Origin: an uncultured Planctomycetales bacterium
GTDB taxonomy: Bacteria > Omnitrophota > Gorgyraeia > Zapsychrales > JANLHA01
Reading direction: 5' to 3'
Assembly: GCA_964489065.1 (NCBI GenBank)
Contig: CAZAXH010000008.1
Span: forward strand, 64,130 to 128,129
Length of the DNA: 64,000 nt
The translations under genes and the position numbers were made by a program. Shown here piece by piece: positions 6,366-42,133 of this stretch (position 1 is the first letter of the stretch; the number at the start of each line of letters is the position of its first letter). The notes under the pieces are model-generated. The model was given only the letters and a program-made list of their open reading frames with translations, searched no databases and had not been told where the DNA came from.

Positions 6366-7421
6366 ATGATAGAACATTCCAAACCGACATTGGGGCCGCG
6401 CGAGAGACAGGCGCTCCTGAAAACTCTGGCTTCCAATTATATTGCGGAAGGCCAGGAAGTGCATTGCTTTGAAAATGAGGTGGCCGCTTATATCGGTTCC
6501 CCGGGCGCTGTCGCAACGTCCACCGGAACTTTGGGGCTCCATCTCGCACTTCTTTGCCTTGATATGAAGCCAGGGGCCGAGATCATCATCCCAAGCTACA
6601 CTTGCCGCTCTGTTTTAAACGCGGTTTCCTACTGCCGGGCTAAACCGGTGGTATGTGACGTGGAGATAGAAAATTATAATTTGTCTTTTGCGGATGTAAA
6701 AAAAAAAATGACGGCTCGCACGCAAGCGATTATTGTGCCGCATATGTTCGGGTGTCCGGCGCCGATTGACCACTTTAAAACACTGGGGGTTCCTCTTATT
6801 GAAGACTGTGCGCACGCTTTGGGCACCGAATATAAAGGGCGGAAAGCGGGCTGTTGGGGCGATTTGGCCCTGCTTTCTTTTGAAGGTACAAAATATATTG
6901 TAACGGGGGAAGGGGGGATGGTCTTAGCCAACTCTGCCCGCATGCTCAAAAGGCTCCGCAAGTTGAAGGAGGGGGATTCTCCCGATCTTCCTGCGAAATA
7001 CACGTATCGTATGACGGATTTACAGGCCGCCGTGGGACGGGTTCAACTGAGCAGGCTGGAAGATTTTATTAAGAAACGCCGGAGCATCGCCCGGGTTTAT
7101 GATAAAGCCTTCGCATCTGTGACCGAAAGGCATCCGTTGGCGCACATTGACGGCCGCCATATTTACCAGCGTTACATGGTTCAGGTCCGGGGAAACATCC
7201 GTAAACTCATGGAAGATTGCCTTCGCCAGGGGATAAAAGTGAAGCAGCCGGTCAAACCTTATCCTCTGCACCGCTATCTGGGTCTTGCCGGAGGTTTATT
7301 CCCCAACACCGAGCGTATTATGCGTTCGGCGGTCTCTATCCCGATATATCCCTCGTTAACAAAAAAAGAGATTATGCATATAACACAAATACTGCCACCC
7401 TTATTCAAGCGCTATGCCTGA
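6366..7421 (+). CDS. DegT/DnrJ/EryC1/StrS-family PLP-dependent aminotransferase
   Basis: It has the typical N-terminus (KPTLGPRERQALLKTLASNYIAEGQEV..FE), a STGTLGLHLAL segment and the PLP-lysine context SFEGTKYIVTGEGG. Confidence 0.9.
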   Translation: MIEHSKPTLGPRERQALLKTLASNYIAEGQEVHCFENEVAAYIGSPGAVATSTGTLGLHLALLCLDMKPGAEIIIPSYTCRSVLNAVSYCRAKPVVCDVEIENYNLSFADVKKKMTARTQAIIVPHMFGCPAPIDHFKTLGVPLIEDCAHALGTEYKGRKAGCWGDLALLSFEGTKYIVTGEGGMVLANSARMLKRLRKLKEGDSPDLPAKYTYRMTDLQAAVGRVQLSRLEDFIKKRRSIARVYDKAFASVTERHPLAHIDGRHIYQRYMVQVRGNIRKLMEDCLRQGIKVKQPVKPYPLHRYLGLAGGLFPNTERIMRSAVSIPIYPSLTKKEIMHITQILPPLFKRYA

Positions 7422-8406
7422 TACTGAAAAAACAATTATCCCGGTTCCTGATTTGTCCCATGTTGACGCCGGCCCGTTCCCGCCCATGGTGGTTGTCGAA
7501 ATCACGAATGTCTGTAATCTGCAGTGCATCCACTGTCCGTTTTGCTATATATCAAAAGAGCCCGGGTATAAACCGTGCTATATGGCCTGGCCGCTTTATA
7601 AAAAGATCGTGGATGAGGTCGCCGGCCATCCCGGAACCATTTTTCGGCTTTTATGTGACGGAGAGCCCCTCTGCCATCCTCGGTTTATCGATATGGTCCG
7701 CTATGCTAAGACGCGGGGGGTAAGCCCGGTTAATTTTATCACCAACGGGCTTTTAATGGACGGGGCCCGGGCTGCGGCGGTGCTGGAAGCCGGAGTGGAG
7801 GCGGTTGAATTCAGCCTGGATGCGCTTAATAAGAACACATACGAGCGCATCCGGAAAGGTTCGAATTATGAAACGGTCATGCATCATGTCAAAGGCTTTA
7901 TCCGGCTGCGAGACACGTTAAAGGCTCCGACAAAAATTTTTGTCAGCATTATTGACCAGCCTGAAGCCGAAGCCGAGTTGGACGCTTTTGTCGCTTACTG
8001 GACCCCCCGTGTCGACCGGGTTATTACCCGGGCCTACACGTCCATACGGGGCCTTGTTGACCCGGCCAAGATCAAGACCGACCCGCAGATTAAACGCTGG
8101 CCCTGTCCTGACCTTTGGAGGCGTTCGTTTATCAATGTCGACGGTTTTGCCGAATTCTGCGTGGAAGATTGGCACGACCAATCCGTGGTCGGGGATATTA
8201 ACAAAACGACCCTTCAGGCCGTCTGGCAGGGTCCGGATTACGAACGGCTCCGGACCCTGCACAGGCAACGGAGGTTTCAGGAAATTCCTTATTGTGCGGG
8301 CTGTCTGGATTGGCGGGCCCGGGACTGGCATTATGATTATTTTTTGGCTTTGAGAGATACGTTAGGCTCAACGGCAGCCCCAGAGCGGCGGGAGGTGCGG
8401 CCATGA
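7414..8406 (+). CDS. Radical SAM enzyme with an abbreviated SPASM/twitch C-terminal domain
   Basis: The rSAM motif is ITNVCNLQCIHCPF (CxxxCxxC). The C-terminal part has CPDLWRRSFINVDGFAEFC (C-x12-G-x4-C) plus YCAGC. It overlaps both neighbours (7414/7421 and 8403/8406). Confidence 0.85.
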   Translation: MPDTEKTIIPVPDLSHVDAGPFPPMVVVEITNVCNLQCIHCPFCYISKEPGYKPCYMAWPLYKKIVDEVAGHPGTIFRLLCDGEPLCHPRFIDMVRYAKTRGVSPVNFITNGLLMDGARAAAVLEAGVEAVEFSLDALNKNTYERIRKGSNYETVMHHVKGFIRLRDTLKAPTKIFVSIIDQPEAEAELDAFVAYWTPRVDRVITRAYTSIRGLVDPAKIKTDPQIKRWPCPDLWRRSFINVDGFAEFCVEDWHDQSVVGDINKTTLQAVWQGPDYERLRTLHRQRRFQEIPYCAGCLDWRARDWHYDYFLALRDTLGSTAAPERREVRP

Positions 8407-9779
8407 CTTCACGGATTCTCCGAAAAACTCAAAGTGTCTGTCCCCGGTGTCTCGAGACCCTGGACACCTTTATCGTGGAAAAGAACGCAAAAATCGTTAT
8501 GAAAAAAACCTGCCCCCGGCATGGGCTGTTTGAAATCGTATTGTCTTCGACTCCGACTTACTACGCCGAACTCGAGGAGTATTATTTTTCCCTGGCGGAC
8601 ACTCGTTATGAAGTCCCGGAATATGAATTTTGGCCAACCTACCGGTGCAACGCTGACTGCACGATCTGCTGTTTCGGGCGGCAGAATTGGGAGATGGCGG
8701 GGCAGGACGCCTCGACGGGCGAAATTGAAAAACTGGCTAAAAACAGCAAGAAGCGTTTTTTTATTATTTCCGGGGGTGACCCGACCTGCCGGGATGACCT
8801 GGGTGATATTATAAGGACTTTTCGTAAACACGGGAAAGTCGTGACGATCAATACCAACGGCTTAAAATGCGCGGATTTAAACTACCTGAAGAAGTTGAAA
8901 AAGGCGGGCCTGGATCGACTGAATTTGCAATTTGACGGGTTTGACCCCAGATATTATCTGGCTCTGCGGCGTCAGGATTACCTGGACATCAAGCTGAAAG
9001 TTCTTGAAAACCTGCAGACTTTGGGGATTCAGACGACATTCAACGCGACCATCGCCCGGAATCTTAATGAAGGAGCGATCAAGGAATTAATGGATTTCGC
9101 CTCTTCGCACCCTTTTATCAACGGCGTTAATTTCTTTTCCATCTGTTTTCTGGGAGGGGCGAGGGACTGGGAACAAAGTTCATACATCATGCCGGATGAA
9201 ATCATTGACCTGCTCATCAGCCAAATAAGACCCGTTATTTCTAAAAAGAATGTTTTTGTTTTTCAAAAACTTCATCTGGCGGTCAAGTCGTTCCTGGCTC
9301 AGAAATGGTGCTTTTATAATCAGGTCTATCTTTTTGTCCGCAGAAACGGCTCTTTCGAGCCGATTGACCGCTTTCTCAACCTCGCTAAAGCCGAACCTTG
9401 GCTGGACCGTTACAGGGACAACTTCAAGACCAAGCCCTTCTGGGCGCGCGCCTGTCTGGGGATAGCCGTGGGGTGTCTCTTCCTGAAAAAAGAGTCCGTT
9501 ATTATTTTAAAGGAGATCCTTTTGAGGAGCGTGTCCTATTTTCTGAAGACGCGCCATTATCTTCGCGGCAGCCGGTTTTTCTCCGTGAGCTTTTCAACCG
9601 GCTGTGATCCTTATAAATTTGATTTTAACATTGTGAAACATTGCCAGAATGAAATCATCGCGGCCCGGGACCAGGACGGCGTGTTGACTCACTTAGGGAG
9701 CGACGGCCTGTATTGCATGGGGCTGGAGAAACGGTATTTGAGAAATAAACTCCAGAAAGAGGGGATGAGTTCTCGTTGA
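8403..9779 (+). CDS. Radical SAM protein with an N-terminal zinc-ribbon/rubredoxin-like knuckle (subtype A)
   Basis: The N-terminus is SVCPRCL-x19-CPRHG. The rSAM motif is YRCNADCTICCF, followed by SGGDPT. The conserved C-terminal Cys triad is WCFYNQ, CDPYKFD and HCQNEII, and there is a hydrophobic segment FWARACLGIAVGCLFL. Confidence 0.85.
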   Translation: MTSRILRKTQSVCPRCLETLDTFIVEKNAKIVMKKTCPRHGLFEIVLSSTPTYYAELEEYYFSLADTRYEVPEYEFWPTYRCNADCTICCFGRQNWEMAGQDASTGEIEKLAKNSKKRFFIISGGDPTCRDDLGDIIRTFRKHGKVVTINTNGLKCADLNYLKKLKKAGLDRLNLQFDGFDPRYYLALRRQDYLDIKLKVLENLQTLGIQTTFNATIARNLNEGAIKELMDFASSHPFINGVNFFSICFLGGARDWEQSSYIMPDEIIDLLISQIRPVISKKNVFVFQKLHLAVKSFLAQKWCFYNQVYLFVRRNGSFEPIDRFLNLAKAEPWLDRYRDNFKTKPFWARACLGIAVGCLFLKKESVIILKEILLRSVSYFLKTRHYLRGSRFFSVSFSTGCDPYKFDFNIVKHCQNEIIAARDQDGVLTHLGSDGLYCMGLEKRYLRNKLQKEGMSSR

Positions 9780-9780
9780 T

Positions 9781-11052
9781 ATGATGAAAGCCTACCCCCG
9801 ACATTCCGTTGACATTACCTGGCGCGATTACAAGCGCATGGTTTCGTTTTTCTTCACATCCCCGGCCCGGAGGAAAGAATTCCTTCCGGAATTCGAACAA
9901 CGCTTTGCGGAATATACCGGCACCCGCTTCGCCCTGTCCGTGCCGTCCGCCCGGGTGGGGCTTTATGCGATCCTGCAGTATTTTAATTTCCCTAAAGGGG
10001 CCGAAGTTATCATCACCCCGTTCACGCACCAGAGTATTTTTACGGTCCTGAAGACGTTCCGGCTTAAGCCGGTTTTCGTCGATATCGATGAAAAGACGCA
10101 CAATATCGACCCGCACCTGGTCAGGAAATCGGTTTCGGAGAAAACCCGTCTGCTGATTTTAACTCATATGTGGGGGCAGCCCTGCGACATGGCCGCGTTC
10201 ACCGCCTTGAAAAAAGAGTACGATCTGAAAATTATTGAAGATTGCGCCATGGCCGCCGGCGCGACTTACCAGGGGCGGAAAGTGGGGAGTTTCGTCGATG
10301 CCAGCATATTCAGCTTCGGGAAAGCTAAGGCCATTTGCGCTTTCGGCGGCGGGATGCTGTGCTGCCATGACGCCTCCATGAAGGATTTTATCTCCGGCCT
10401 GATCCGGGATTTTAAGCCCTCCCGGAGCCTGCCGCTGGCGGTTTCCGTCATTAATTCCGTGATCGCCAATATCCTGACCCGGCCCCGCTTTTTTTTCTTC
10501 TCCCTTTATCCGGTGATGCGGCTTTTCAACCTGCGGGATCCCTACAATCCGGTTGAACATAAAAAAGACTCCGAAGTCATCCTGGAGCAGATGCCGGAAG
10601 AATGGAAAGTCAAAATGTCGCCGTTTCAGGCCGCCCTGGGGCTGGAACAGCTCCGGAGCCTGGACGCCCGTAACCAGGCCCGGGCCCGTAACGCGCAGCT
10701 TTTGAACTTTTTGTTGGAGGGGACGCCGGGGATCAGTGTGCCCCGGCCGCAACCCGGAGGTAATCATATTTATCTTTACTACGCGGTTCATATACAGAAC
10801 GCCGCTTCTCTGGACGCCCTTAGGTTGAGCTTGCTGAAGCGTTCGGTCGACACGCAATTAAATGAGTTGACGACTCCCCGGCAGCTGCGTGTTTTCGGGG
10901 CGGACAGCCGGACGGTCCCTGTTTTTGAAACCATATCCGCGAATATCCTTGTCATCCCCAACGGGATTTATTTAAATGACCGGGATATCCGGCTTGTGGC
11001 GGAGGCGTTAAAACAGAGCCTGAGGTCCCTTCCGGGGAAGGGGGATGCATGA
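9781..11052 (+). CDS. DegT-like PLP aminotransferase-fold protein (long subtype with a hydrophobic insert)
   Basis: It has a DegT-like layout (ALSVPSARVGLYAIL, IEDCAMAAGATYQGRKVG, FSFGKAKAICAFGGG). A hydrophobic insertion (LPLAVSVINSVIANILTRPRFFFFSLYPVMRLF) follows the lysine motif. Confidence 0.75.
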   Translation: MMKAYPRHSVDITWRDYKRMVSFFFTSPARRKEFLPEFEQRFAEYTGTRFALSVPSARVGLYAILQYFNFPKGAEVIITPFTHQSIFTVLKTFRLKPVFVDIDEKTHNIDPHLVRKSVSEKTRLLILTHMWGQPCDMAAFTALKKEYDLKIIEDCAMAAGATYQGRKVGSFVDASIFSFGKAKAICAFGGGMLCCHDASMKDFISGLIRDFKPSRSLPLAVSVINSVIANILTRPRFFFFSLYPVMRLFNLRDPYNPVEHKKDSEVILEQMPEEWKVKMSPFQAALGLEQLRSLDARNQARARNAQLLNFLLEGTPGISVPRPQPGGNHIYLYYAVHIQNAASLDALRLSLLKRSVDTQLNELTTPRQLRVFGADSRTVPVFETISANILVIPNGIYLNDRDIRLVAEALKQSLRSLPGKGDA

Positions 11053-12431
11053 AAACGGCCCGGCCATCCCGCTCGATATTACGGACAACGGAAAGCGTCT
11101 GCCCGAAATGTTCCGCGCCCCTGCCCGCCAGTATTGTCGCGGATGAAAAAGGCGTGTTTATGGAGAAACGCTGCCCGCAGCATGGAGATTTTCGCGTGCG
11201 CCTGTCCGAAACCCCGGCCTTGTACGCCGAACTGGACGGGTTTTACTGTTCCCTGATGGGGCGGGCGCAACCTTGTTTTGATTATGAAATCTGGCCCACC
11301 CTGCGGTGCAATATGAATTGCGCGATATGTTTTTTCGGCTGTCCGCGGGAATCTTCCCGGGTTTTTGAGCCGACGCTCAACGCCATCGAACAGTTCGTCA
11401 GCCGGGACCCGCACCCGTTTTACTGCCTCTCCGGAGCGGAAGCGACTGTCCGGGATGATTTGCCGGATATCATCCGTATTTTAAAAAAGCACCGGAAAGT
11501 CGTGACGTTGAACACTAACGGAATGCGTTTCGAGGATGAATCTTATCTGTTAAAACTGAAGAACGCCGGGCTGGACCGGGTTATTTTGCAATGCGATGGT
11601 TTTGATCCCCGTGTTTCCCTGAAGATGAGGGGAGAGGATGCTGTCCCCCAACGGCAGCGTGTCTTGGCCCTCTTGGAAAAGCATCATATGCCGACCGCGC
11701 TCAGTTCCACGATCGCCCGGGGCCTCAACGAACATACGGTTTCGGAATTGCTGGATTACGCGCTGGCGCATCCTTTCATCAACGGGATCGCGTTTCTGTC
11801 CATCGCCTTTGACGGCGGGGCCCGGAACTGGAGCCAGGAGCGCTACATGATGCCGGATGAAGTGATCGACGTTGTCTGCCGTGTCCCCGGCTATAACGTA
11901 AAAAAAGAAAACGTGCACAGATTTCAAAAGCTGCATTTCGCCGTCAAGGCGTTCTTGAAGCAGCGCGCGTGTTTATATAATCAGCTTTATGTCCTGGTGC
12001 GCCGGCGGGGTTCCTTTGAGCCTATTGACGCTTTCATGAATCTCGCTAAAGCCGAGCCCTGGCTGGACCGTTACCGGCACGCTTACGCGGGGAAGAAACA
12101 CGGCCTGGCCGCTCTTTATCTGGGGCTGGCTTTGCTATGCCTGTGCTGCCATCGCCGGATTTTAGTCCTGTTCCGGGACCTTCTCGGCTCGGGGGTGTCT
12201 TATTTCTTCCGGACGTCACGATATCTAAGAACAGGCCGACTGCTTGCTTTAAGTTTTACGACCAGCTGCGACCCGTATAAGCTCGACAAGACAATCCTCC
12301 AGAATTGTCAGAATGAAATTATGGCCGCGGATCAAACACCGGACTCTTTACGCCCTATCGGAAGGGAAGGCGCCTATTTCGTGAACCTGGAAAAACATTA
12401 CGCTGAATCTCAACCCCGGGGGGAACCATGA
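11049..12431 (+). CDS. Radical SAM protein with an N-terminal zinc-ribbon knuckle (subtype A)
   Basis: It has SVCPKCS-x19-CPQHG, LRCNMNCAICFF, KAEPWLDRYR, CDPYKLD and NCQNEIM, plus the hydrophobic segment LAALYLGLALLCLCC. ATGA overlaps occur at both ends. Confidence 0.85.
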   Translation: MKTARPSRSILRTTESVCPKCSAPLPASIVADEKGVFMEKRCPQHGDFRVRLSETPALYAELDGFYCSLMGRAQPCFDYEIWPTLRCNMNCAICFFGCPRESSRVFEPTLNAIEQFVSRDPHPFYCLSGAEATVRDDLPDIIRILKKHRKVVTLNTNGMRFEDESYLLKLKNAGLDRVILQCDGFDPRVSLKMRGEDAVPQRQRVLALLEKHHMPTALSSTIARGLNEHTVSELLDYALAHPFINGIAFLSIAFDGGARNWSQERYMMPDEVIDVVCRVPGYNVKKENVHRFQKLHFAVKAFLKQRACLYNQLYVLVRRRGSFEPIDAFMNLAKAEPWLDRYRHAYAGKKHGLAALYLGLALLCLCCHRRILVLFRDLLGSGVSYFFRTSRYLRTGRLLALSFTTSCDPYKLDKTILQNCQNEIMAADQTPDSLRPIGREGAYFVNLEKHYAESQPRGEP

Positions 12432-15184
12432 AACCTGACACGATCATTCGCGCGACGCAAAGCGTTTGCCCTGTATGCCTGGAAGCCGTGCCCGCGACGG
12501 TGCTTGAGAAAGACGGCCGGGTTTACCTGACTAAGACCTGCCCCCGGCACGGGGCCTCCGAAGTCCTTCTGTCTGAGACCGCGGGTCTTTACAAAGAACT
12601 GGAAGGCTTTTTTTCCGCCGTTATGAACCCGTCTTACCGCATCCGCGAATATGAAATCTGGGTGACAATGCGCTGCAACACGTCTTGCACCATCTGTCAT
12701 CTCGGAGACAGCAACAGGATCGACATCCCGGACCCGAGCCTGGAAAAAATCGAGGAGTTTATCCTCCGGCATGACCAGCCGGCTTATATCCTTTCTGGGG
12801 GAGAGCCCACCTGCCGGGAAGACCTGCCGGATATTGTCCGCCTTTTTAAAAAGCACGGCAAGCATATCAGCCTGCACACGAACGGTCTGGCTTTAGGGAA
12901 CAAAGATTACATCCGTTCCCTGCAGGAAGCGGGGTTGGACCGGATCAATCTTCAATTTGACGGGTTCGCGCCGGACGCGTATAAAATTTTCCGGGGGAAA
13001 AATATCCTGGATAAGAAGCAACTGGCTTTAAAAAACCTGGAAGACCTGCGTCTGCCGACGGATTTGAATATCACGGTTGCCCGGGGTGTCAATGAGCCGG
13101 CCGTCATGGACAGCGTCCGGTTTGCCGTTAAACATCCTTTCATCTCTTCCGTTAACTTCTTCACGATCTGCTACCTGGGAGAAACGGCCCGATGGCCTTT
13201 AAAATATTTCCTTATGCCGGATACGATCGGAGACATCCTGGAAAAAGAAACAGGCGGCCGGATTTCCAAGCGCGGCATCATCCTTTTTCAGAAACTGCAC
13301 CTGGCCGTTAAATCCCTGCGTTCGGAGCGTTATTGCCTTTACAGCCAGATTTTTGTCCTGTTCCGAAAACGGGACGGGACGTATGACCCCATTGACCGCT
13401 ATCTTAACCTGGAACGGACGGACAGGCTTCTGAAACTTTATCAAAAAATGGCTCCCGGGCATCCTGTCCTCGCCAAAATAATTTTAATTTTAGGCCTGCC
13501 GTTTTTTATGATGCGCTGGTCCACGCTGGTGATCCTGAAAGAAATCTTGCGGACCGGATTTTCTTTTATGATCAACGAGGATTACGCTTTAAAAACCAGC
13601 CCGTTCCTTTATTTGAATTTTAATACGAGCTGTGATCCTTATAAAATCGATTACGGGTTCGTGCAGGATTGTCAGGATGAAATCATTTTTTATGACCGTC
13701 AGCAGGAACACTTGGTGAACCAGGGAGTGGACGGATTGCGCGCCATCGAGTTCGAGCGCCGCTACCGTAAGGCCGCCCCCAAGGAGACGATTCGCATTGA
13801 TCGGAAAATGGAAACATCCCAGAGGCATAAGCCTGCCGGCTTGGGCAACCGTGTCATTCGGGAGACAATGAGCGTGTGTCCTGTTTGCCTGGCCCCGCTC
13901 CCGGCCAGGATCCGGGCCGGAGCGGATGGCGTTTATCTGGAAAAGACATGCCCCCGGCACGGGGCCTTTCGCGTTTTTGTTTCGACTCATCCGGATGATT
14001 ATCAGGCCCTGTCCGACACTTATTTTTATTTTATCCCCGGGGCTCTGGAACAACGGGAATATTACGTCTGCGCGAGCACGCGGTGCAACATTTCGTGCCC
14101 GATTTGTTACCTGAATTATTGCCCTGAGCGGCCTCCTCTGACGCCCGAGGATATGAACAGCGCCGTGGGGGATAAACCGCAGGTGGAGCGCTTCACGTTT
14201 TCCCACGGCGAGCCCACGGTCTCTCCGCAACTGCCGGAGATGATCCGGGCTTTAAAGAAAGCCGGGAAATTTGTCAACATTCATACGAACGGCGTGAAAC
14301 TTGCCGATTATGCTTATACTCAATCCCTGAAACAGGCGGGGCTGGATCACGTGAGCCTCCAGTTTGACGGTTTTCGTGATGAAATTTATGAGACCCTGAG
14401 AGGCGGGAAGCTCTTGGAGGCCAAAACGCGCGCTTTGGATAATCTTAAGGCGCTGGAAATCCCCGTGACATTAAACGTGACGATCGCCGGGGGCGTTAAT
14501 GAAGACGAGTGGGGCAAAGTTTTTGATTACGTTGTCCGGAATGATTTTATTAAAGACGTGAGTTATATCACTTACTGCCATTACTCCCCTCAGGGGGATG
14601 CCGAGGGCCGGTCCATGATGCCGGACGACCTGGTGATACGCCTCGTGGAGCATTCTCAAGGGACGATTGAGAGGGAGGATGTGGTCTGTTTTCAGAAATT
14701 GTTTTACGCCTATTTAAGCGCCTTCCGCAAGAAAAAATGCTTTAACTATTATCATTATTGCGTTGTGCGGACATCCGGCGGATACCGTGGGATTGAGCGT
14801 TATCTGGATGTGCGGAAGATCGCCGGGAAGATTGACGCGTGCCGGGAGAGAGGACAAACGATGACGAAAACGTTGTTGCTGAAAATATTGTTAACCTCTC
14901 TGCGATGGGATAGTGTGGCGTTGATTCCTTACGGATTATTTTTGCTGTCGCGCGGGGGGTATCCCCCAAGCCCCGGGAAACTTTTAGTCGTGACGTTGGC
15001 CAGTATCTGCGACCCGTATAAATATGACGCAACGGTCGCCTTAAATTGCGGGCAGGGCATTATTACTCAAACCATGCAACATGAGAGTTACGGGACATAT
15101 ATTATCGAGGAGATGAAGCGTTCGCCGCGTCCCGACGCAGCTCGTGTCCTGCCTGACGCGTTTCCTCAAGGGGGTTCGGTATAA
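12428..15184 (+). CDS. Tandem fusion of two zinc-ribbon radical SAM modules (subtype A followed by subtype B), 918 aa
   Basis: Module 1 has SVCPVCL..CPRHG, MRCNTSCTICHL, CDPYKIDYGFVQDCQDEII. A linker (RYRKAAPKETIRIDRKMETSQRHKPAGLGNRVIRET) follows. Module 2 has SVCPVCL..CPRHG, TRCNISCPICYL, ICDPYKYDATVALNCGQGII. The reading frame is continuous in the supplied sequence. Confidence 0.85.
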   Translation: MKPDTIIRATQSVCPVCLEAVPATVLEKDGRVYLTKTCPRHGASEVLLSETAGLYKELEGFFSAVMNPSYRIREYEIWVTMRCNTSCTICHLGDSNRIDIPDPSLEKIEEFILRHDQPAYILSGGEPTCREDLPDIVRLFKKHGKHISLHTNGLALGNKDYIRSLQEAGLDRINLQFDGFAPDAYKIFRGKNILDKKQLALKNLEDLRLPTDLNITVARGVNEPAVMDSVRFAVKHPFISSVNFFTICYLGETARWPLKYFLMPDTIGDILEKETGGRISKRGIILFQKLHLAVKSLRSERYCLYSQIFVLFRKRDGTYDPIDRYLNLERTDRLLKLYQKMAPGHPVLAKIILILGLPFFMMRWSTLVILKEILRTGFSFMINEDYALKTSPFLYLNFNTSCDPYKIDYGFVQDCQDEIIFYDRQQEHLVNQGVDGLRAIEFERRYRKAAPKETIRIDRKMETSQRHKPAGLGNRVIRETMSVCPVCLAPLPARIRAGADGVYLEKTCPRHGAFRVFVSTHPDDYQALSDTYFYFIPGALEQREYYVCASTRCNISCPICYLNYCPERPPLTPEDMNSAVGDKPQVERFTFSHGEPTVSPQLPEMIRALKKAGKFVNIHTNGVKLADYAYTQSLKQAGLDHVSLQFDGFRDEIYETLRGGKLLEAKTRALDNLKALEIPVTLNVTIAGGVNEDEWGKVFDYVVRNDFIKDVSYITYCHYSPQGDAEGRSMMPDDLVIRLVEHSQGTIEREDVVCFQKLFYAYLSAFRKKKCFNYYHYCVVRTSGGYRGIERYLDVRKIAGKIDACRERGQTMTKTLLLKILLTSLRWDSVALIPYGLFLLSRGGYPPSPGKLLVVTLASICDPYKYDATVALNCGQGIITQTMQHESYGTYIIEEMKRSPRPDAARVLPDAFPQGGSV

Positions 15185-15188
15185 AATT

Positions 15189-16751
15189 ATGAAGATCGCC
15201 TTTATTAATGATTCCTGTGAACGGCTGGGTGTTGAATATATTTCAGCCGTGCTTAAACAGCATGGGCACACCGTCAAATTGTTCGCCGATCCGCAGCTCT
15301 TTGATGACGAAAATTTTACAATCGCGCCTCTGGCCAGGTTTTTTGACCGGCAGGAAGACCTGCTGGCCCAAATTCAGGCGTTCCAGCCGGATCTGATCGG
15401 GTTCTCGGTCGTGACGGACTTTTATCAGTGGGCCTGCCGCCTCGCCAGGCGTATCAAAGCGGTGATGGATGTCCCGGTGCTTTTCGGAGGGATTCACGCG
15501 ACATCGGTTCCCGAAAAGGTCCTGCAGCAGGATTGCGTGGATATGGTCTGCCGGGGGGAAGGGGAGTTCGCCCTTTTGGACCTCGCCGACAGCATGGAGA
15601 AGGGCCTCCGGGATTACACGATCCCCAACATTTGGTTTAAAAAAGACGGTGCGATCATCAGGAATGATGCGCGTCCCCTGATCGAGGACCTGGATGCGCT
15701 GCCGTTCGCGGATAAAGACCTTTTTTATGAGGCCAGCCCCCATTTTTCCCGTTGCTATTTCCTGATGACCAACCGCGGCTGCGCTTACGCCTGCAGTTAT
15801 TGCTGTAATTCATTCCTGAAAAAATTTTATCATGCGAAAGGCCGGTACCTGCGTTTCCGCAGCGCCGGAAACGTGATCCGGGAGTTGACCCTGGCCAAAC
15901 AGAAATACGGCATTAAAATGGTCCGTATCCACGATGATGACTTCCTCACGCACGACGTGCCCTGGTTCGAGGAGTTCGCGGAAGAATACTCCCGGCATAT
16001 ACAGGCCCCGTTCGCATGCTTCACGCACCCCAACAGCGTGACGGAAACCAAAGCCCGCCTGCTGAAGAAAGCAGGGTGCCACGATATCGAAGTGGGGGTC
16101 CAGTCCATCTCCTCGGACACGCGTTACCGGATTCTTAACCGCCGCGTTTCGGATGAGCAATTGGTCCGCGCTCTGCAGATATTAAAAGACGCGGGCATCA
16201 AGGTGATCACGGATAATATCCTGGGGCTTCCTCACCAGGGGCGGGAGGAGCTTCTGGATCTCATTAAATTTTATAATAAAAACAGGATCATGAAGATTTA
16301 CTGTTTCGGCTTCCGGCATTATCCGGCCACGGATATCGTCGAATATTCCAGGGACGAGAAACTGCTGAGCGCACAGGATGTCGAGAACCTGGAGAACGGG
16401 ATCAATGTCAAGACCTTCATTCAGAGCGGGGATAATTTGAGCCGTGAGGACCGGCAACTGCAGACATTTTTTGCGTTTCTGCTCTACCTGCCGGAGACGG
16501 TCAATAATTACATCCTTGAGAAAAAGCTGTACCGTTATTTTATCCCGCTCCCGTATTATGTCCTGGTTATCTTTTCCAATTGGCTGCGCATCCCGTACCG
16601 GTACAACTGGGCGCTGCATATTACCGTGTGCCGGTACCGGGTTTATGCTTATAAAACGATAAAGAAAAAGTTTACCTCGGGTATCAGGGCGTTGCTTAAA
16701 AAGTTCCGCCCTTCGGCCTTTAACACGGCGCGGGGGACGCCTGTCCGGTGA
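15189..16751 (+). CDS. B12-binding (class B) radical SAM enzyme, array paralog 1
   Basis: The ATG at 15189 gives MKIAFINDSCERLGVEYISAVLKQHGH, matching the paralog N-termini. The track ORF starting at 15144 overlaps the upstream gene. It has GGIHATSVPE and CRGEGE (B12-binding domain) and NRGCAYACSYC (CxxxCxxC). Confidence 0.9.
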   Translation: MKIAFINDSCERLGVEYISAVLKQHGHTVKLFADPQLFDDENFTIAPLARFFDRQEDLLAQIQAFQPDLIGFSVVTDFYQWACRLARRIKAVMDVPVLFGGIHATSVPEKVLQQDCVDMVCRGEGEFALLDLADSMEKGLRDYTIPNIWFKKDGAIIRNDARPLIEDLDALPFADKDLFYEASPHFSRCYFLMTNRGCAYACSYCCNSFLKKFYHAKGRYLRFRSAGNVIRELTLAKQKYGIKMVRIHDDDFLTHDVPWFEEFAEEYSRHIQAPFACFTHPNSVTETKARLLKKAGCHDIEVGVQSISSDTRYRILNRRVSDEQLVRALQILKDAGIKVITDNILGLPHQGREELLDLIKFYNKNRIMKIYCFGFRHYPATDIVEYSRDEKLLSAQDVENLENGINVKTFIQSGDNLSREDRQLQTFFAFLLYLPETVNNYILEKKLYRYFIPLPYYVLVIFSNWLRIPYRYNWALHITVCRYRVYAYKTIKKKFTSGIRALLKKFRPSAFNTARGTPVR

Positions 16752-16761: not shown

Positions 16762-18114
16762 ATGTCTATGAAAACTTATTTCATAAGCGCGTCGACATTC
16801 TGCATGGAACGGATGCTGGACTGCCAGCAGGTTTCCGATTATCTCAAGTTGAACGGCTGGCGTCCGGTGACGCGGGTTCGGCAGGCCGGGCTGGTCATCA
16901 TAAGCACCTGCTCGTTCGGGCGCGAAGAGGACGCGAGCTCCCTGGATTATATCCGTTATTTTCTGCGGAAGAAATCGCCCCGGGCCCGTTTCCTGATTAT
17001 GGGGTGCCTTCCGGTGATCAACCCCGACTTATTATCTTCTTATCAGGATATTCCCGTGCTCACACCGACCACTTTATCCCGGATCGAAACCGTGGCCCCT
17101 CCGGAGAGGACCCGGTTCGCGGATGTCCCGGAACCCAATAAAATTTTGGCGACAGAAGTCACGCACAGTGTTTTTCTGAAAAAAGCGTTAAGTTTCCGTT
17201 CCGCGTTCAGGCAGGGCCTCCGGTGTTTTAAGCCTGATGTAGCGACGTTGCGGCGGGGGCTGTCCTTCCTGAAAGCCGCGGTGCGTTATGTCCCGGTTAT
17301 GAAGGCGCACATTAACCCGTTCTTATCCTGTAACCGGAACGGATTTTATTATTTGAGATTATCCAAGGGCTGCCTGGGGAACTGCAGTTACTGCGCTAAA
17401 AGACATTCGACAGGGACCTTGCAGAGCAAATCCACAACCTCTATCCTCGATGAATTCCGCGCCGGGCTCAGGGCCGGGGAAAAGCAGTTTTATTTATTGA
17501 CGGAAGACGTCGGCTGTTACGGGGCCGACCGGCACACAGATATCGTAGCCTTGTTGAAAAATCTTTTTGAAGCCGGGGAGAGGCATGATTTCCGGATTGT
17601 CCTGTCCAATTTCAATGCCCGGTGGTTCGTGCGGTATTATGAGGACCTGGAGCCGGTCTTGATCCGGAATCAGAACAAAATTTTGTATCTGCAAATACCG
17701 ATCCAGTCAGGCAGCACCCGCATCCTGGAATTCATGAACCGGCATTACACCATTGAAGACGTGGAATCCCGGCTCCTGACTTTAAGAAAGAACGCCCCGG
17801 CGGTCGCCTTCACGACCGATATCATCGCCGGATTCCCGGGGGAAACGGATGAGGATTTTGAACTCACCAAGAAGTTTTTGTCGAAAATACGTTTTCAGCA
17901 CGTTGATATTTTCGCTTACGAAAAACGCCCCGGCACTAAAGCGGGAACGCTTCCCGGGGACGTCCCCCCGGAGATCATCGAAGCCCGTGTCCTGCAGTTG
18001 GCCCGGCTTCAGAACAGCTATCACCGGGGCCCCATGCTTGCTAAAAAAGTGCTGGATGTTATCCGGGAAAACCTGCAGCGCTACCGGAATAAAGCCGTGA
18101 CCCGTACGCCATGA
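16762..18114 (+). CDS. MiaB/RimO-like methylthiotransferase-type radical SAM enzyme lacking a TRAM domain
   Basis: The N-terminal UPF0004-like domain has three spaced Cys (STFCMERMLDC.., IISTCSF, IMGCLP). The rSAM motif is SKGCLGNCSYCAKRH, and GFPGETDEDF is present. The C-terminus ends without a recognisable TRAM barrel. Confidence 0.75.
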   Translation: MSMKTYFISASTFCMERMLDCQQVSDYLKLNGWRPVTRVRQAGLVIISTCSFGREEDASSLDYIRYFLRKKSPRARFLIMGCLPVINPDLLSSYQDIPVLTPTTLSRIETVAPPERTRFADVPEPNKILATEVTHSVFLKKALSFRSAFRQGLRCFKPDVATLRRGLSFLKAAVRYVPVMKAHINPFLSCNRNGFYYLRLSKGCLGNCSYCAKRHSTGTLQSKSTTSILDEFRAGLRAGEKQFYLLTEDVGCYGADRHTDIVALLKNLFEAGERHDFRIVLSNFNARWFVRYYEDLEPVLIRNQNKILYLQIPIQSGSTRILEFMNRHYTIEDVESRLLTLRKNAPAVAFTTDIIAGFPGETDEDFELTKKFLSKIRFQHVDIFAYEKRPGTKAGTLPGDVPPEIIEARVLQLARLQNSYHRGPMLAKKVLDVIRENLQRYRNKAVTRTP

Positions 18115-23980: not shown

Positions 23981-24013
23981 ACCAGGGGGATGAAGGTCGG
24001 CAAGGATAAGGTT

Positions 24014-27012: not shown

Positions 27013-27029
27013 CCGCGGAAAGGATTAAC

Positions 27030-28640: not shown

Positions 28641-28680
28641 ACTCTGTTTTGTGCCTTTGTTAAGAGAGGAAAAAGGTTTT

Positions 28681-30291: not shown

Positions 30292-30304
30292 CACAAAAAC
30301 TCAT

Positions 30305-31366: not shown

Positions 31367-32076
31367 ATACCAGTATTTCCTTGGTTGTCCCTGTTTATAA
31401 TGAAGCGGAAATCATCGCCGACACGTTGGCGGCCTTTACCCGGGAACTATCGGGTGTCTGCAGGGATTTTGAAATTATCGTTGTGGATGACGGGAGCACG
31501 GATGACACCGCGGCCATATTACGCCGGATTTCAGAAAATAACGCGCGTATCAAAGTTGTCTATAACCCGGTCAATGAAGGGAGCGGAGCCAGCGTCTGGA
31601 AAGGGTTCAAGAGCGCCGGCAAAGAACTGATCATCAGTAATTTCGCGGACCGCCCTTTTGCCCTTTCGGATTTAGAGGGGGTTATCCGGGCGGCCGACCT
31701 GAACAGCGCTGATTTTATCGTCGTGGTCAGACAGGACCGGAGCGCCAACACGGGCTATAGGAAAATAACGTCCCTGACGAATTACTGGCTTATCCGATTC
31801 CTGTTTAAGGTGAAGATATCTGATTTCCAGTTTGTCCAGGTCTATAAACGCCCGGTCATTCAGGGCATCCCTATCCGTTCCCGGGAGACGTTTGTCCCGC
31901 CAGAACTGATGATCAGGCTTCTGGACAAAGGCTTTCAGTATCGGGAAGTCATCCGGCCGTTTCATAAAAGACCGGGAGGGCAGTCGAAATGCGGCCGCCC
32001 GGGGAAAGTGTTGAGAAGTATGCTGGAAATCTTTAACTTTTGGATATATTGGGTCATCCTCAAAAAGCGAGATTGA
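31360..32076 (+). CDS. GT2-family polyprenyl-phosphate glycosyltransferase (DPM1/ArnC/CsbB-like)
   Basis: The ATG at 31360 follows a GGAGG RBS. It has SLVVPVYNEAEII, IIVVDDGSTDDT and a small soluble size, typical of polyprenol-P sugar synthases. It overlaps the upstream stop. Confidence 0.85.
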   Translation: MLNTSISLVVPVYNEAEIIADTLAAFTRELSGVCRDFEIIVVDDGSTDDTAAILRRISENNARIKVVYNPVNEGSGASVWKGFKSAGKELIISNFADRPFALSDLEGVIRAADLNSADFIVVVRQDRSANTGYRKITSLTNYWLIRFLFKVKISDFQFVQVYKRPVIQGIPIRSRETFVPPELMIRLLDKGFQYREVIRPFHKRPGGQSKCGRPGKVLRSMLEIFNFWIYWVILKKRD

Positions 32077-32773: not shown

Positions 32774-32977
32774 AAACAGAGGAGGACAAAAGGGCCGCCC
32801 CCTGGCAAAAATTATGGAGCCCCATGCCCATAGGCATGTGGCTATTAACAATTCGTTTCGCGGAATGATCTGACCACCTTAATATATGTACGGACATCCC
32901 CGAAACAGAAAACCTTGTTAGTCCTCCGGCATTCATCCACGGGCACGCCTGCGGTCTTCTGCCAGGGGGATAAAAAT

Positions 32978-40875: not shown

Positions 40876-40879
40876 CGAT

Positions 40880-42124: not shown

Positions 42125-42133
42125 ATTAAAAAG

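What the first reader, a model, noticed from the sequence alone, without database searches (positions are those of the whole stretch)
8403..15184. Five modules of a zinc-ribbon-capped radical-SAM family that may be tetraether-synthase (Tes/GDGT-MAS, class D)-like
Four ORFs (8403, 11049, 12428 with two modules, and 22637 further downstream) begin with S(V/L)CP.C-x19-C(P/D).HG. This is a Cys3His knuckle placed before a C(N).(S/D/N)C.IC rSAM motif. They end with a conserved Cys triad (C(F/L/Y)(Y/N), CD(P/K)YK.D, C(Q/G)(N/D/Q)(E/G)(I/F)). There are two subtypes. Subtype A (8403, 11049, 12428-N) has KAEPWLDRYR and FQKLH(L/F)AVK. Subtype B (12428-C, 22637) has FQKL(F/Y)YA and NCGQG. From memory, an N-terminal rubredoxin-like metal site plus extra clusters is the architecture reported for the archaeal MJ0619/GDGT-MAS (Tes) group. 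That group joins lipid tails through sp3 C-C bonds, and its bacterial homologs are candidates for membrane-spanning and branched GDGT lipids. If that link holds, five such modules next to eleven class-B rSAMs would be a bacterial membrane-spanning-lipid tailoring toolkit. Class B is also the class I recall for the GDGT ring synthases GrsA/B and the hopanoid methylases HpnP/HpnR.
Basis: partly seen in the sequence, partly recalled or inferred. Interest (0 to 1): 0.82.

Follow-up and report, generated by a model that had tools for sequence, protein, structure and literature searches.

The report
Tes-like radical SAM paralogs in Omnitrophota
Five copies of an enzyme related to the archaeal tetraether-lipid synthase sit in a large, conserved operon of an uncultured Omnitrophota bacterium; they form an uncharacterised subfamily that lacks the synthase's signature features, and they are wired to cell-envelope sugar-transfer genes, so their product is unknown and is probably not a classical membrane-spanning lipid.

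Summary
Five paralogous modules carry the same ten metal ligands: a Cys3His knuckle, the CX3CX2C radical SAM motif and a C-terminal Cys triad. The two-module ORF exists only because an A-run is one base shorter than in a 99.945 % identical contig, so the ancestral state is five separate genes.

Homology to Tes/GDGT-MAS is confirmed. Every module has the Pfam HMPTM zinc ribbon plus a radical SAM domain. GDGT-MAS (7TOL/7TOM) is the only full-length structural match (TM 0.77; profile E 1.6e-76).

The modules are not Tes. They score 143-153 bits against a cutoff of 450 and are 24-28 % identical. They lack the N-terminal [4Fe-4S] motif, Met439, Tyr459 and Cys470, which are invariant in the sampled archaeal Tes. 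They are not TrsS either.

They form an almost entirely Omnitrophota subfamily with two old subtypes. It lies in a conserved operon: DegT aminotransferases, a SPASM radical SAM enzyme, a TRAM-less MiaB-like enzyme and many B12 radical SAM paralogs. A small GT2 follows, then a flippase-like protein and GT-C transferases.

My best reading is Tes-style chemistry on a membrane-anchored glycolipid or lipid-linked glycan of the envelope. The membrane-spanning-lipid reading is not excluded but has no specific support.

The parts
6366..7421 (+). DegT-1, a DegT/DnrJ/EryC1-family PLP aminotransferase and the first gene of the operon
   Evidence: Pfam PF01041, E 4e-80. The best NCBIfam hits, PseC/LegC/ArnB, are below their cutoffs. 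It is conserved at 48-96 % identity in L001, L002, L004-L007, L009 and L010, and more weakly (27-32 %) in L008 and L012. A 342-bp AT-rich gap lies upstream.
7414..8406 (+). Radical SAM/SPASM enzyme
   Evidence: Pfam Radical_SAM plus SPASM. PDB hits to PqqE and BtrN are weak. It is conserved at 49-100 % identity in the loci that cover this position, including the most distant cluster, L003.
8403..9779 (+). TesL-A1, a Tes-like radical SAM enzyme of subtype A: rubredoxin-like Cys3His knuckle, CX3CX2C motif and C-terminal Cys triad
   Evidence: PF23545 55.6 bits and PF04055 93.4 bits. TrsS 153 bits and Tes 144 bits, both below cutoff. AlphaFold2 pLDDT 95.3. Foldseek to 7TOM gives TM 0.77.
9781..11052 (+). 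DegT-2 aminotransferase, placed between Tes-like genes
   Evidence: PF01041, E 7e-66. The top PDB hit is glutamine-scyllo-inositol transaminase 7B0D, followed by sugar and 2-deoxy-scyllo-inosose aminotransferases.
11049..12431 (+). TesL-A2, a lineage-specific subtype-A duplicate
   Evidence: PF23545 60.1 bits and PF04055. It is 49 % identical to A1. Orthologs at 79 % identity or more occur only in the closest genomes, L005, L006/L015 and L017.
12428..13834 (+). TesL-A3, subtype A, the N-terminal module of the 918-aa ORF
   Evidence: First PF23545 + PF04055 pair of the 918-aa ORF. It differs from the stand-alone 467-aa protein P0060 (L017) at only one residue up to residue 460, after which the frames diverge.
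13805..13808 (+). A4 homopolymer whose length fuses TesL-A3 to TesL-B1
   Evidence: The window has AAAA and L017 has AAAAA. This is the only indel in 12,668 bp at 99.945 % identity. L005 and L006/L015 keep a stop codon here.
13808..15184 (+). TesL-B1, subtype B, the C-terminal module; ATG at 13808 is the likely ancestral start
   Evidence: Second PF23545 + PF04055 pair. Its ortholog is 65 % identical in the complete chromosome OY759724 (L001/L007), where it is the second core Tes-like gene.
15189..16751 (+). B12-binding radical SAM enzyme 1 (the listed ORF starts at GTG 15144; ATG 15189 gives the N-terminus MKIAF shared with the paralogs)
   Evidence: PF02310 + PF04055. HpnJ 111 bits against a cutoff of 578, and ladderane-B12 100 bits against 360. 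Start codon check.
16762..18114 (+). MiaB/RimO-family methylthiotransferase-like radical SAM enzyme without a TRAM domain
   Evidence: UPF0004 + Radical_SAM only. TIGR00089 212 bits against a cutoff of 251. It is conserved within the array in eight or more loci.
18111..22653 (+). Three tandem B12-binding radical SAM paralogs (18111-19625, 19622-21136, 21115-22653)
   Evidence: PF02310 + PF04055 in each. The closest solved relative is the MCR glutamine C-methyltransferase 9CCB, at only E 1.6e-12.
22637..23980 (+). TesL-B2, a Tes-like radical SAM enzyme of subtype B
   Evidence: PF23545 53.1 bits and PF04055. TrsS 182 bits and Tes 153 bits, both below cutoff. 7TOL E 6.4e-43. Orthologs are 51-92 % identical in L002, L004, L013, L014 and L015.
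23990..28640 (+). Three more B12-binding radical SAM paralogs (23990-25540, 25537-27012, 27030-28640)
   Evidence: PF02310 + PF04055 in each.
28609..30291 (+). Membrane protein with about five N-terminal hydrophobic helices and a possible beta-propeller C-terminal part; function unknown
   Evidence: Hydropathy peaks. The only Pfam hint is a faint Lactonase propeller match.
30194..31366 (+). Flippase-like membrane protein with an LPG_synthase_TM domain
   Evidence: PF03706, E 1e-21. Eight hydrophobic segments.
31303..32076 (+). Small GT2 glycosyltransferase resembling polyprenyl-phosphate sugar synthases
   Evidence: PF00535. The best NCBIfam hit is ArnC; PgaC and PgfS follow, and PpgS and dolichyl-P-hexose transferase are also listed. 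All are weak. Orthologs 49 % identical directly follow the radical SAM array in L003 and L018.
32078..32773 (+). WbqC-family protein, a family found in O-antigen clusters
   Evidence: PF08889, E 1e-73.
32915..34765 (+). YfhO-like GT-C membrane glycosyltransferase
   Evidence: PF09586 over the C-terminal end. Nine hydrophobic segments. A homolog lies inside the L003 cluster (E 2e-18).
36259..49071 (.). Second block with further radical SAM enzymes: 36259-37674 (-), 39370-40875 (B12), 42134-43612 (BchE-like), 43609-44613 and 47599-49071 (HpnJ-like). It also holds DegT-3 (40739-42124) and a PMT_2 GT-C (44621-45982).
   Evidence: Pfam and NCBIfam results.

Best explanation
The five modules are functional-looking paralogs of a distinct, almost entirely Omnitrophota subfamily of the Tes/GDGT-MAS superfamily (MJ0619-type zinc ribbon plus radical SAM domain).

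Shown:
- They keep three of the four metal sites of GDGT-MAS. These are the rubredoxin-like Cys3His site, the SAM-cleaving [4Fe-4S] site, and a C-terminal auxiliary site with three Cys.
- They have lost the N-terminal auxiliary cluster.
- The C-terminal ligand set is rearranged. A Cys sits three residues after the position of Tes Met439. Cys470 and Tyr459 are absent.
- The region that forms the second lipid pocket in GDGT-MAS is still helical and is strongly hydrophobic.
- The genes lie in a tightly packed, translationally coupled operon conserved across Omnitrophota. Its order is DegT, SPASM radical SAM, TesL-A, DegT, TesL-B, B12 radical SAM, a TRAM-less MiaB-like enzyme, then more B12 radical SAM and TesL-B2 copies, then a small GT2. 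GT-C transferases and, in this window, a flippase-like protein follow.

Inferred mechanism:
- Each enzyme abstracts hydrogen from an unactivated sp3 carbon of a hydrophobic, membrane-anchored substrate.
- It parks the substrate radical on the site-differentiated C-terminal cluster, as Tes does, to form a C-C or C-S bond.
- The B12 enzymes add methyl groups or rings. The MiaB-like enzyme adds sulfur or a methylthio group. The SPASM/DegT pairs convert hydroxyl groups to amines on a sugar head group.
- The GT2, flippase-like protein and GT-C then deliver the product to the envelope.

The product would be a heavily tailored envelope glycolipid or lipid-linked glycan, not canonical GDGT or brGDGT core lipid.
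For: Homology and fold.

Loss of [Fe4S4]N: there is one CX3CX2C motif in all 5 modules and in nearly all of the 259 relatives, against two in 119 of 120 archaeal Tes.

Ligand mapping: C303 = Tes C338 and C414 = Tes C455. C401 falls at the Tes M442 column. M439, Y459 and C470 are invariant in 30/30 Tes but absent in the window's subfamily.

Separate clade with two subtypes.

Taxonomic restriction.

Hydrophobic helices at about residues 344-375. The GDGT-MAS lipid pocket is built from amphipathic helices in the equivalent region (PMC9433317).

Conserved synteny.

GT2 49 % identical directly after the array in two distant cluster versions, and a YfhO-like GT-C conserved in L003.

L018 continues with an SGNH protein, a GT2 and a Wzy_C protein.

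A natural B12-rSAM + TesL fusion (P0123) ties the two enzyme types to one pathway.

Gene overlaps of 4-32 nt through most of the radical SAM array, longer near its 3' end.

Precedent for radical SAM enzymes working on both the tails and the sugar head groups of lipids (Tes, Grs, Gms/Gmm, Cds, HpnJ): PMC13459092.
Against: - No substrate is identified, and nothing here tests activity.
- Sequence cannot settle whether the C-terminal triad binds a cluster with an open iron site.
- I could not inspect the model coordinates, so pocket hydrophobicity and Cys-Cys distances are unverified.
- DegT, WbqC, GT2 and GT-C genes are equally compatible with a purely carbohydrate substrate.
- Nearly all DegT-family enzymes act on sugars, nucleotide sugars or cyclitols, not on lipids.
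- DegT genes are missing from the most divergent cluster (L003).
- The GT2 next to the archaeal TesL in L019 is not orthologous to the window's GT2.
Confidence: 0.45

Rival explanations
1. The Tes-like enzymes couple lipid tails tail-to-tail to make bacterial membrane-spanning lipids, and the B12 enzymes methylate or cyclise the chains. This would be a bacterial counterpart of Tes plus Grs, Gms and Gmm.
For: - GDGT-MAS is the only full-length structural and sequence relative with a known function.
- The region equivalent to its lipid pocket is hydrophobic.
- In archaea, Tes, Grs, Gms and Gmm genes do cluster and act sequentially (PMC13459092; bioRxiv 10.1101/2023.10.20.563219).
- Bacterial Tes homologues are a standing hypothesis for brGDGT synthesis (PMC11868695).
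Against: - The modules are 24-28 % identical to Tes and score 143-153 bits against a cutoff of 450.
- They would fail the field's homologue criteria of E <= 1e-50 and identity >= 30 % (PMC13159169).
- They lack [Fe4S4]N, Met439, Tyr459 and Cys470.
- No glycerolipid, ether-lipid (Ger, PlsA, ElbD) or isoprenoid gene lies in the 64-kb window or in the related loci read.
- The conserved partners are amino-sugar and glycan genes.
- Surveys credit Omnitrophota with Mss rather than Tes (PMC11868695).
- No bacterial Tes homologue has been shown to be functional (PMC11868695).
- The B12 enzymes are not Grs, HpnP/R or Gmm equivalogs.
Confidence: 0.2
2. The whole radical SAM set tailors a soluble or nucleotide-activated amino sugar or aminocyclitol, or a higher-carbon sugar. 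The chemistry would resemble aminoglycoside or tunicamine biosynthesis. The Tes-like enzymes make sugar C-C bonds, as MoaA-type enzymes do. The finished sugar is then loaded on polyprenyl phosphate by the GT2 and transferred by the GT-C enzymes.
For: - Three DegT aminotransferases are present. The best solved relative of DegT-2 is a glutamine-scyllo-inositol transaminase.
- The SPASM enzyme weakly resembles BtrN.
- MoaA is the second-closest relative of the Tes-like core.
- The B12 enzymes' best, weak hits include HpnJ, AprD4 and OxsB, which are sugar-ring chemistry.
- Other context genes are WbqC, an AsnB-type EPS amidotransferase, a CapK/PaaK-like ligase and an ABC-2 exporter. A carbamoyltransferase lies next to the archaeal TesL.
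Against: - The window has no nucleotidyltransferase, 4,6-dehydratase or cyclitol synthase.
- The full-length fold matches the lipid enzyme, including its helical pocket region, which is more hydrophobic here than in GDGT-MAS.
- Some B12 paralogs carry a hydrophobic C-terminal segment, which hints at membrane association.
- DegT genes are absent from the most divergent version of the cluster.
Confidence: 0.22
3. The cluster matures a ribosomal peptide or modifies a protein. It would be proteusin- or polytheonamide-like, with B12 C-methyltransferases, SPASM enzymes and an AsnB-like cyclase.
For: - There are many B12 radical SAM enzymes, whose hits include RiPP C-methyltransferase models (ApyD, TIGR03975) at low scores.
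- A SPASM enzyme is present.
- The AsnB homolog weakly hits the lasso cyclase model.
Against: - No precursor-like small ORF was found in the only sizeable gap at the 5' end of the operon.
- Genes are packed with overlaps through most of the array.
- No protease or RiPP recognition element was found.
- All RiPP model hits are far below their cutoffs.
- The AsnB protein scores best to the EPS amidotransferase model.
- The DegT, GT2, GT-C and WbqC genes are unexplained by this reading.
Confidence: 0.05
4. The enzymes are pterin or cofactor C-methyltransferases, following the legacy MJ0619 annotation (7,8-dihydro-6-hydroxymethylpterin dimethyltransferase, the former 'class D').
For: The name of Pfam PF23545 and some database labels carry this annotation.
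Against: The annotation was overturned. MJ0619 is GDGT-MAS and the former class D has been abolished (PMC9433317, PMC9692996). No pterin or folate gene lies nearby.
Confidence: 0.02

Closest known systems
Tetraether lipid synthase Tes / GDGT-MAS (MJ0619; PDB 7TOL, 7TOM; NCBIfam NF045702)
   Same: - It has the same N-terminal rubredoxin-like CX2C-X20-CX2H site and the same radical SAM core.
- It has the same overall full-length fold (TM 0.77).
- Two of the three Cys of the C-terminal auxiliary cluster are conserved (Tes C338 and C455).
- A helical region precedes the last beta-sheet, as in Tes.
- The profile-to-sequence E-value is 1.6e-76.
   Different: - Identity is 24-28 %, and scores are 143-153 bits against a cutoff of 450.
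- The roughly 20-residue insert carrying [Fe4S4]N (C73, C77, C80, H83) is absent.
- Met439, Tyr459 and Cys470, invariant in the sampled archaeal Tes, are absent.
- A new Cys sits at the Met442 position.
- The proteins are about 40-50 residues shorter.
- They are bacterial, occur as 2-5 paralogs per cluster, and lie among amino-sugar and glycan genes rather than archaeal lipid genes.
Radical SAM (seleno)protein TrsS (NCBIfam NF045646)
   Same: It is the best-scoring NCBIfam model for all five modules (150-182 bits). It belongs to the same superfamily.
   Different: - Scores are far below the 490-bit cutoff.
- A genuine Tes (P0120) scores 356 bits on the same model, so the hit reflects superfamily similarity only.
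- There is no in-frame UGA or selenocysteine.
- TrsS has no established function (PMC13188914 lists it only as a selenoprotein family).
MoaA (GTP 3',8-cyclase)
   Same: It is the second-closest solved structure and NCBIfam family for the radical SAM core. It also uses a C-terminal auxiliary [4Fe-4S] cluster with an open site.
   Different: Only the core aligns (TM 0.38 normalised to the query). MoaA has no zinc ribbon, and its C-terminal domain and substrate are different.
Three-component extracytoplasmic glycosylation systems (ArnB/ArnC/ArnT; CsbB/GtcA/YfhO; GtrA/GtrB/Gtr)
   Same: The operon ends with a small GT2 resembling polyprenyl-phosphate sugar synthases, a flippase-like membrane protein and YfhO-like or PMT_2-type GT-C transferases. 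DegT aminotransferases lie upstream, as ArnB does.
   Different: No known system of this kind is preceded by up to 19 radical SAM domains. All matches to the named equivalogs are below cutoff. How these systems are organised is stated from general knowledge, not tested here.
Archaeal GDGT-tailoring sets and hopanoid side-chain enzymes (GrsA/B, Gms, Gmm, Cds; HpnH, HpnJ, HpnP, HpnR)
   Same: The logic is the same: several radical SAM enzymes, many with B12 domains, act in sequence on one membrane lipid, on both its tails and its sugar head group (PMC13459092).
   Different: The window's B12 enzymes score 48-132 bits on the HpnJ, HpnR and ladderane-B12 models, against cutoffs of 360-650. No lipid backbone genes are nearby.

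Membership tests
Tes / GDGT-MAS (NF045702 equivalog) | Rubredoxin-like mononuclear site, C9X2C12X20C33X2H36 | tested here: met
   All five modules have CPxC-x20-C(P/D)xHG. The columns align with Tes C9, C12, C33 and H36.
Tes / GDGT-MAS (NF045702 equivalog) | N-terminal auxiliary [4Fe-4S] cluster (C73, C77, C80 and a conserved His) | tested here: not met
   These columns are gaps in all 5 modules and in 104-106 of the 108 close relatives aligned. They are invariant in 30/30 Tes. Two CX3CX2C motifs occur in 119/120 Tes, against one here. The insert is visible as a gap in the profile alignment to 7TOL.
Tes / GDGT-MAS (NF045702 equivalog) | Radical SAM CX3CX2C cluster and a GGE-type SAM motif | tested here: met
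   CN..C.IC is present in all five modules. The GGE-type motifs read SGGDPT, SGAEAT, SGGEPT, SHGEPT and YGAEPT.
Tes / GDGT-MAS (NF045702 equivalog) | C-terminal auxiliary cluster set: C338, C455 and C470 (ligand role inferred here from their 30/30 invariance), the labile ligand Met439, and conserved Tyr459 | tested here: not met
   The C338 and C455 equivalents are conserved (C303 and C414). The M439 column holds S, T, N, A or G, and the Y459 and C470 columns are gaps. The third conserved Cys (C401) lies at the Tes M442 column instead.
Tes / GDGT-MAS (NF045702 equivalog) | Score at or above the curated whole-protein cutoff (450 bits) | tested here: not met
   The single-module proteins score 143-153 bits, and the two-module ORF scores 266 bits. 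A genuine Tes (P0120) scores 574 bits.
Tes / GDGT-MAS (NF045702 equivalog) | Full-length fold of GDGT-MAS | tested here: met
   The AlphaFold2 model (pLDDT 95.3) matches 7TOM with E 9e-32, TM 0.77/0.72 and 504 aligned columns. The next fold scores TM 0.38.
Tes / GDGT-MAS (NF045702 equivalog) | Csp3-Csp3 coupling of saturated lipid tails | not testable with these tools
   This needs anaerobic biochemistry or lipidomics.
TrsS (NF045646 equivalog) | Score at or above the 490-bit cutoff; selenocysteine in many members | tested here: not met
   The single-module proteins score 150-182 bits. The ORFs are uninterrupted, with no in-frame UGA.
PF23545 zinc ribbon + PF04055 radical SAM superfamily (MJ0619-like) | Both Pfam domains above their gathering scores, in that order | tested here: met
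   PF23545 scores 53-60 bits per module (gathering score 27), and PF04055 scores 66-93 bits (gathering score 29.5).
Mss (bacterial membrane-spanning lipid synthase) | Homology to Thermotoga or Thermoanaerobacter Mss | not tested
The literature calls Mss only remotely related to Tes (PMC13159169).
Class B (B12-binding) radical SAM enzymes (the neighbouring genes) | N-terminal B12-binding domain plus a radical SAM domain | tested here: met
   Eight proteins have PF02310 + PF04055. Three more are B12-type by NCBIfam only.
GrsA/B, HpnP/HpnR, HpnJ and ladderane B12 radical SAM equivalogs (the neighbouring genes) | Score above the curated cutoff of the specific model | tested here: not met
   HpnJ scores 59-132 bits against 578. 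HpnR scores 48-66 against 650. TIGR04072 scores 59-100 against 360. No Grs or HpnP model appeared among the listed hits, so those two were not specifically tested.

The most novel reading that the evidence does not exclude
The operon builds a new class of bacterial envelope lipid in Omnitrophota. The lipid would have chains cross-linked or joined by Tes-type, cluster-assisted Csp3-Csp3 coupling. It would then be poly-C-methylated or cyclised by the B12 paralogs and methylthiolated by a non-RNA MiaB relative. It would carry an aminated sugar head group. If so, these would be the first functional bacterial Tes-type couplers and a possible source of orphan sedimentary lipid biomarkers.
Probability: 0.15. 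Interest if true: 0.9.

Novelty: new variant of a known kind. Interest (0 to 1): 0.62.

Why it matters
Tes is the only characterised member of its superfamily, and it performs very unusual chemistry: it joins two unactivated sp3 carbons through an Fe-S cluster-bound intermediate. Whether bacterial relatives do anything similar is an open question, and it bears on the origin of the brGDGT biomarkers used in palaeoclimate work.

This window defines a coherent bacterial subfamily with a simplified cofactor set, lacking the N-terminal cluster and carrying a re-wired C-terminal cluster. It shows that the subfamily always travels with B12 radical SAM enzymes and usually also with a SPASM radical SAM enzyme, a TRAM-less methylthiotransferase relative and glycan-transfer genes.

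That yields a concrete, clonable operon and a testable hypothesis. It also warns against counting such sequences as 'Tes homologues' in metagenomic lipid surveys.

With 19 radical SAM domains in about 42 kb, the locus also stands out as an unusually dense radical-chemistry island in a phylum with no pure-culture biochemistry (stated from general knowledge, not checked here).

Tried and rejected
- The search for related loci with the 56-sequence alignment failed because no stretch was conserved enough. The five-module alignment worked.
- Foldseek against afdb50 was unavailable.
- Model coordinates are not exposed. I could not measure Cys-Cys distances or pocket polarity.
- The paper that defines TrsS (Haft & Tolstoy 2025) is not held. 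TrsS context is therefore unknown to me.
- I looked for TrsS or Tes members among the more distant single-motif relatives. Nine of the ten scanned were neither; the tenth was a genuine Tes.
- I considered a RiPP reading and searched the 5' gap for a precursor ORF. None was convincing.
- Promoter and terminator scans added nothing beyond a terminator-like site at 5163-5179 and a weak promoter-like site at 6151-6178.
- I checked whether the GT2 next to the Woesearchaeota TesL is orthologous to the window's GT2. It is not: 29 % identity over 78 aa.
- A hemerythrin-TesL fusion (L020) sits in a sensor and stress-gene context with no radical SAM array, so it says nothing about this operon.
- Literature searches for Omnitrophota or Omnitrophica together with radical SAM, Tes or GDGT found no description of this cluster.

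Full report
**Observation**

The four ORFs exist as described, all on the + strand. When the 918-aa ORF is split, the five modules align over their whole length at 31-49 % pairwise identity. Ten metal-ligand positions are invariant (8403 numbering): C13, C16, C37 and H40; C82, C86 and C89; C303, C401 and C414. Each module independently passes Pfam PF23545 ('HMPTM N-terminal zinc ribbon', 53-60 bits, gathering score 27) and PF04055, so chance is not an issue.

There are two small corrections. The knuckle spacer is 20 residues, not 19. KAEPWLDRYR is present only in 8403 and 11049.

One correction is substantive. The two-module ORF exists because the window has AAAA at 13805-13808. A 12,668-bp contig from another sample (L017) is 99.945 % identical and has AAAAA there. 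That is its only indel, and it encodes two overlapping genes of 467 and 462 aa. More distant relatives (L005, L006/L015) also have a stop codon at this point. The ancestral state is therefore five separate genes. The fusion is strain-specific or an assembly error.

**Source organism**

The closest proteins (72-91 % identity) and all but three of the 12 genome loci recovered come from Candidatus Omnitrophota MAGs. One of them is a 3.36-Mb chromosome, OY759724.

**What the modules are**

NCBIfam ranks TrsS (150-182 bits for the single-module proteins) and Tes (143-153 bits) first. Both are far below their equivalog cutoffs of 490 and 450.

Among solved structures, GDGT-MAS (7TOL/7TOM) is the top hit by three measures:
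- single sequence, E 3e-39 and 6e-43;
- a 56-sequence family profile, E 1.6e-76, aligned over profile positions 9-423 and chain residues 23-484;
- fold: the AlphaFold2 model of 8403 (pLDDT 95.3) matches 7TOM with TM 0.77 over 504 columns.

The next fold, MoaA, covers only the radical SAM core (TM 0.38).

**Why they are not Tes**

I recovered the full MJ0619 sequence and 119 archaeal Tes. I aligned 30 of them with 222 relatives of the window's proteins.
- Archaeal Tes are at least 52 % identical to MJ0619 among the 120 best hits, which span several archaeal orders. The window's modules are 24-28 % identical to it.
- In Tes, the [Fe4S4]N ligands C73, C77, C80 and H83, together with C338, M439, C455, Y459 and C470, are invariant (30/30).
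- The window's subfamily has a gap where the [Fe4S4]N insert lies. It has one CX3CX2C motif, against two in 119/120 Tes.
- The subfamily keeps the C338 and C455 equivalents. It has small residues at the M439 position and gaps at Y459 and C470.
- It has a conserved Cys (C401, in the motif CDPYK) at the column of Tes M442.
- Lloyd et al. report Met439 and Tyr459 as completely conserved in 1,000 archaeal homologues, although neither is essential in vitro (PMC9433317).

In a neighbour-joining tree the five modules sit in a 97-leaf clade that excludes Tes. Subtype A has 61 leaves and subtype B has 26.

A profile search of 1.84 billion representatives gave 1,138 hits at E <= 1e-30. Of 217 close and intermediate relatives, 180 share the window's C-terminal pattern. 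Ten divergent ones were scanned with NCBIfam. None was TrsS, and only one was a true Tes (574 bits), which itself scores 356 bits on the TrsS model.

The modules therefore belong to an uncurated subfamily of the MJ0619-type superfamily. The label 'class D' is obsolete for this protein (PMC9692996).

**Context**

From 6366 to 34765, about 20 genes run on one strand. They overlap by 4-32 nt through most of the radical SAM array and by more near its 3' end. Their order is:
- DegT-1, SPASM radical SAM, TesL-A1, DegT-2, TesL-A2, TesL-A3, TesL-B1;
- B12-1, then a MiaB/RimO-like enzyme with no TRAM domain;
- B12-2, B12-3, B12-4, TesL-B2, B12-5, B12-6, B12-7;
- a membrane/propeller protein, an LPG_synthase_TM flippase-like protein, a small GT2, WbqC and a YfhO-like GT-C.

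A second block (36-51 kb) adds five more radical SAM enzymes, DegT-3, a PMT_2 GT-C, an EPS-type AsnB amidotransferase and a CapK/PaaK-like ligase. A SAM methyltransferase and an ABC-2 exporter follow.

That makes 19 radical SAM domains, eleven of them B12-type. No glycerolipid, ether-lipid or isoprenoid gene is present.

**Conservation of the context**

The core order DegT, SPASM, TesL-A, DegT, TesL-B, B12, MiaB-like, B12 (several), TesL-B2, B12 (several) recurs in Omnitrophota contigs at 45-80 % protein identity (L001, L002, L004, L006, L009, L012, L017). A2 and A3 are duplications specific to the window's lineage.
- In L018 the array is followed by a radical SAM enzyme, a GT2 49 % identical to the window's GT2, an SGNH protein, a second GT2 and a Wzy_C protein.
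- In the most divergent version (L003, 35-39 % identity) the set is reduced to a SPASM enzyme, a B12+TesL fusion protein (950 aa), a YfhO-like GT-C, a TesL, a B12 enzyme, the orthologous GT2 (49 %) and another large membrane protein.
- A Woesearchaeota contig has a TesL, a B12 radical SAM enzyme, a carbamoyltransferase and a small, non-orthologous GT2.

The persistent partners of TesL are therefore B12 radical SAM enzymes, a small GT2 and, within Omnitrophota, a SPASM enzyme. GT-C transferases accompany them in the window and in L003.

**Interpretation**

Shown:
- Superfamily membership is established.
- Three of the four Tes metal sites are retained, and the C-terminal site is re-wired.
- The region equivalent to the GDGT-MAS second lipid pocket is hydrophobic and helical (PMC9433317).
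- The operon is coupled to machinery resembling polyprenyl-phosphate-dependent envelope glycosylation.

Inferred:
- The enzymes perform Tes-like, auxiliary-cluster-assisted functionalisation of unactivated carbons on a membrane-anchored substrate.
- That substrate is either the lipid part of a glycolipid or a lipid-linked glycan.
- The B12 enzymes would methylate or cyclise, and the MiaB-like enzyme would insert sulfur or a methylthio group.
- SPASM/DegT pairs would convert hydroxyls to amines, by analogy with BtrN/BtrS. That analogy rests on weak hits and on general knowledge.

I give this reading 0.45.

However, it has no supporting lipid genes and the family fails every Tes-specific signature. 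The literature stresses that no bacterial Tes homologue has been validated and that known diabolic-acid producers use Mss instead (PMC11868695, PMC13159169). A purely carbohydrate or aminocyclitol substrate (0.22) fits the DegT, WbqC and GT genes. It fits less well with the full-length match to the lipid enzyme. RiPP (0.05) and pterin methylation (0.02) are unlikely.

**Novelty and interest**

I found no paper that describes this cluster. The enzyme family is a new variant of a known kind. The operon as a whole may encode an undescribed pathway.

It matters for three reasons. It offers a tractable bacterial entry point into Tes-type chemistry with a reduced cofactor set. It shows that such sequences should not be scored as Tes in lipid-gene surveys. 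It also flags an exceptionally dense radical SAM island in an uncultured phylum. Because the product is unknown and nothing could be tested functionally, I score interest at 0.62.

Noticed in passing
window 13805-13808: A single-base difference in the length of an A-run (A4 here, A5 in the 99.945 % identical contig L017) decides whether TesL-A3 and TesL-B1 are one 918-aa protein or two overlapping genes.
   Followed up: yes
window 16762-18114: A MiaB/RimO-family methylthiotransferase homolog has UPF0004 and radical SAM domains but no TRAM (RNA-binding) domain. It is conserved inside the radical SAM array in many Omnitrophota loci, which suggests a non-RNA substrate.
   Followed up: partly
window 2864-4609: An Mrp/NUBPL-type Fe-S cluster carrier ATPase and an ARMT1/DUF89 protein lie just upstream of the radical SAM island. 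The carrier might supply clusters to the 19 radical SAM domains.
   Followed up: no
window 8000-28000 against the flanks: GC content is 0.50-0.55 inside the radical SAM array and 0.445-0.47 in the flanking 0-8 kb and 28-32 kb.
   Followed up: no
L003 4510-7362 (protein P0123): A natural fusion of a B12-binding radical SAM enzyme with a Tes-like zinc-ribbon radical SAM enzyme (950 aa) occurs in a reduced version of the cluster.
   Followed up: partly
L020 6457-8712 (P0111); also P0103: Hemerythrin-domain fusions to the Tes-like enzyme (640-751 aa) sit among Usp, CBS and protoglobin-sensor genes, with no radical SAM array nearby. This may be a different, oxygen- or iron-sensing use of the fold.
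   Followed up: partly
L019 221-5594 (Woesearchaeota MAG): A DPANN archaeal contig carries a Tes-like enzyme of this single-motif type next to a B12 radical SAM enzyme, a carbamoyltransferase and a small GT2.
   Followed up: partly
window 36259-51837: A second block holds five further radical SAM enzymes (BchE-like, HpnJ-like and MoaA/SPASM-like among them), a third DegT, a PMT_2 GT-C, an 11-helix membrane protein, an EPS-type AsnB amidotransferase, a CapK/PaaK-like ligase and HEAT-repeat proteins.
   Followed up: partly
window 15144-15189: The listed ORF for the first B12 enzyme starts at GTG 15144. ATG 15189 gives the N-terminus MKIAF shared by all paralogs and removes the 41-nt overlap with the upstream gene.
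   Followed up: yes
window 53963-58551: An RND efflux pump (AcrB-type) and an outer-membrane factor lie downstream of the ABC-2 exporter. Any relation to the cluster is unknown.
   Followed up: no
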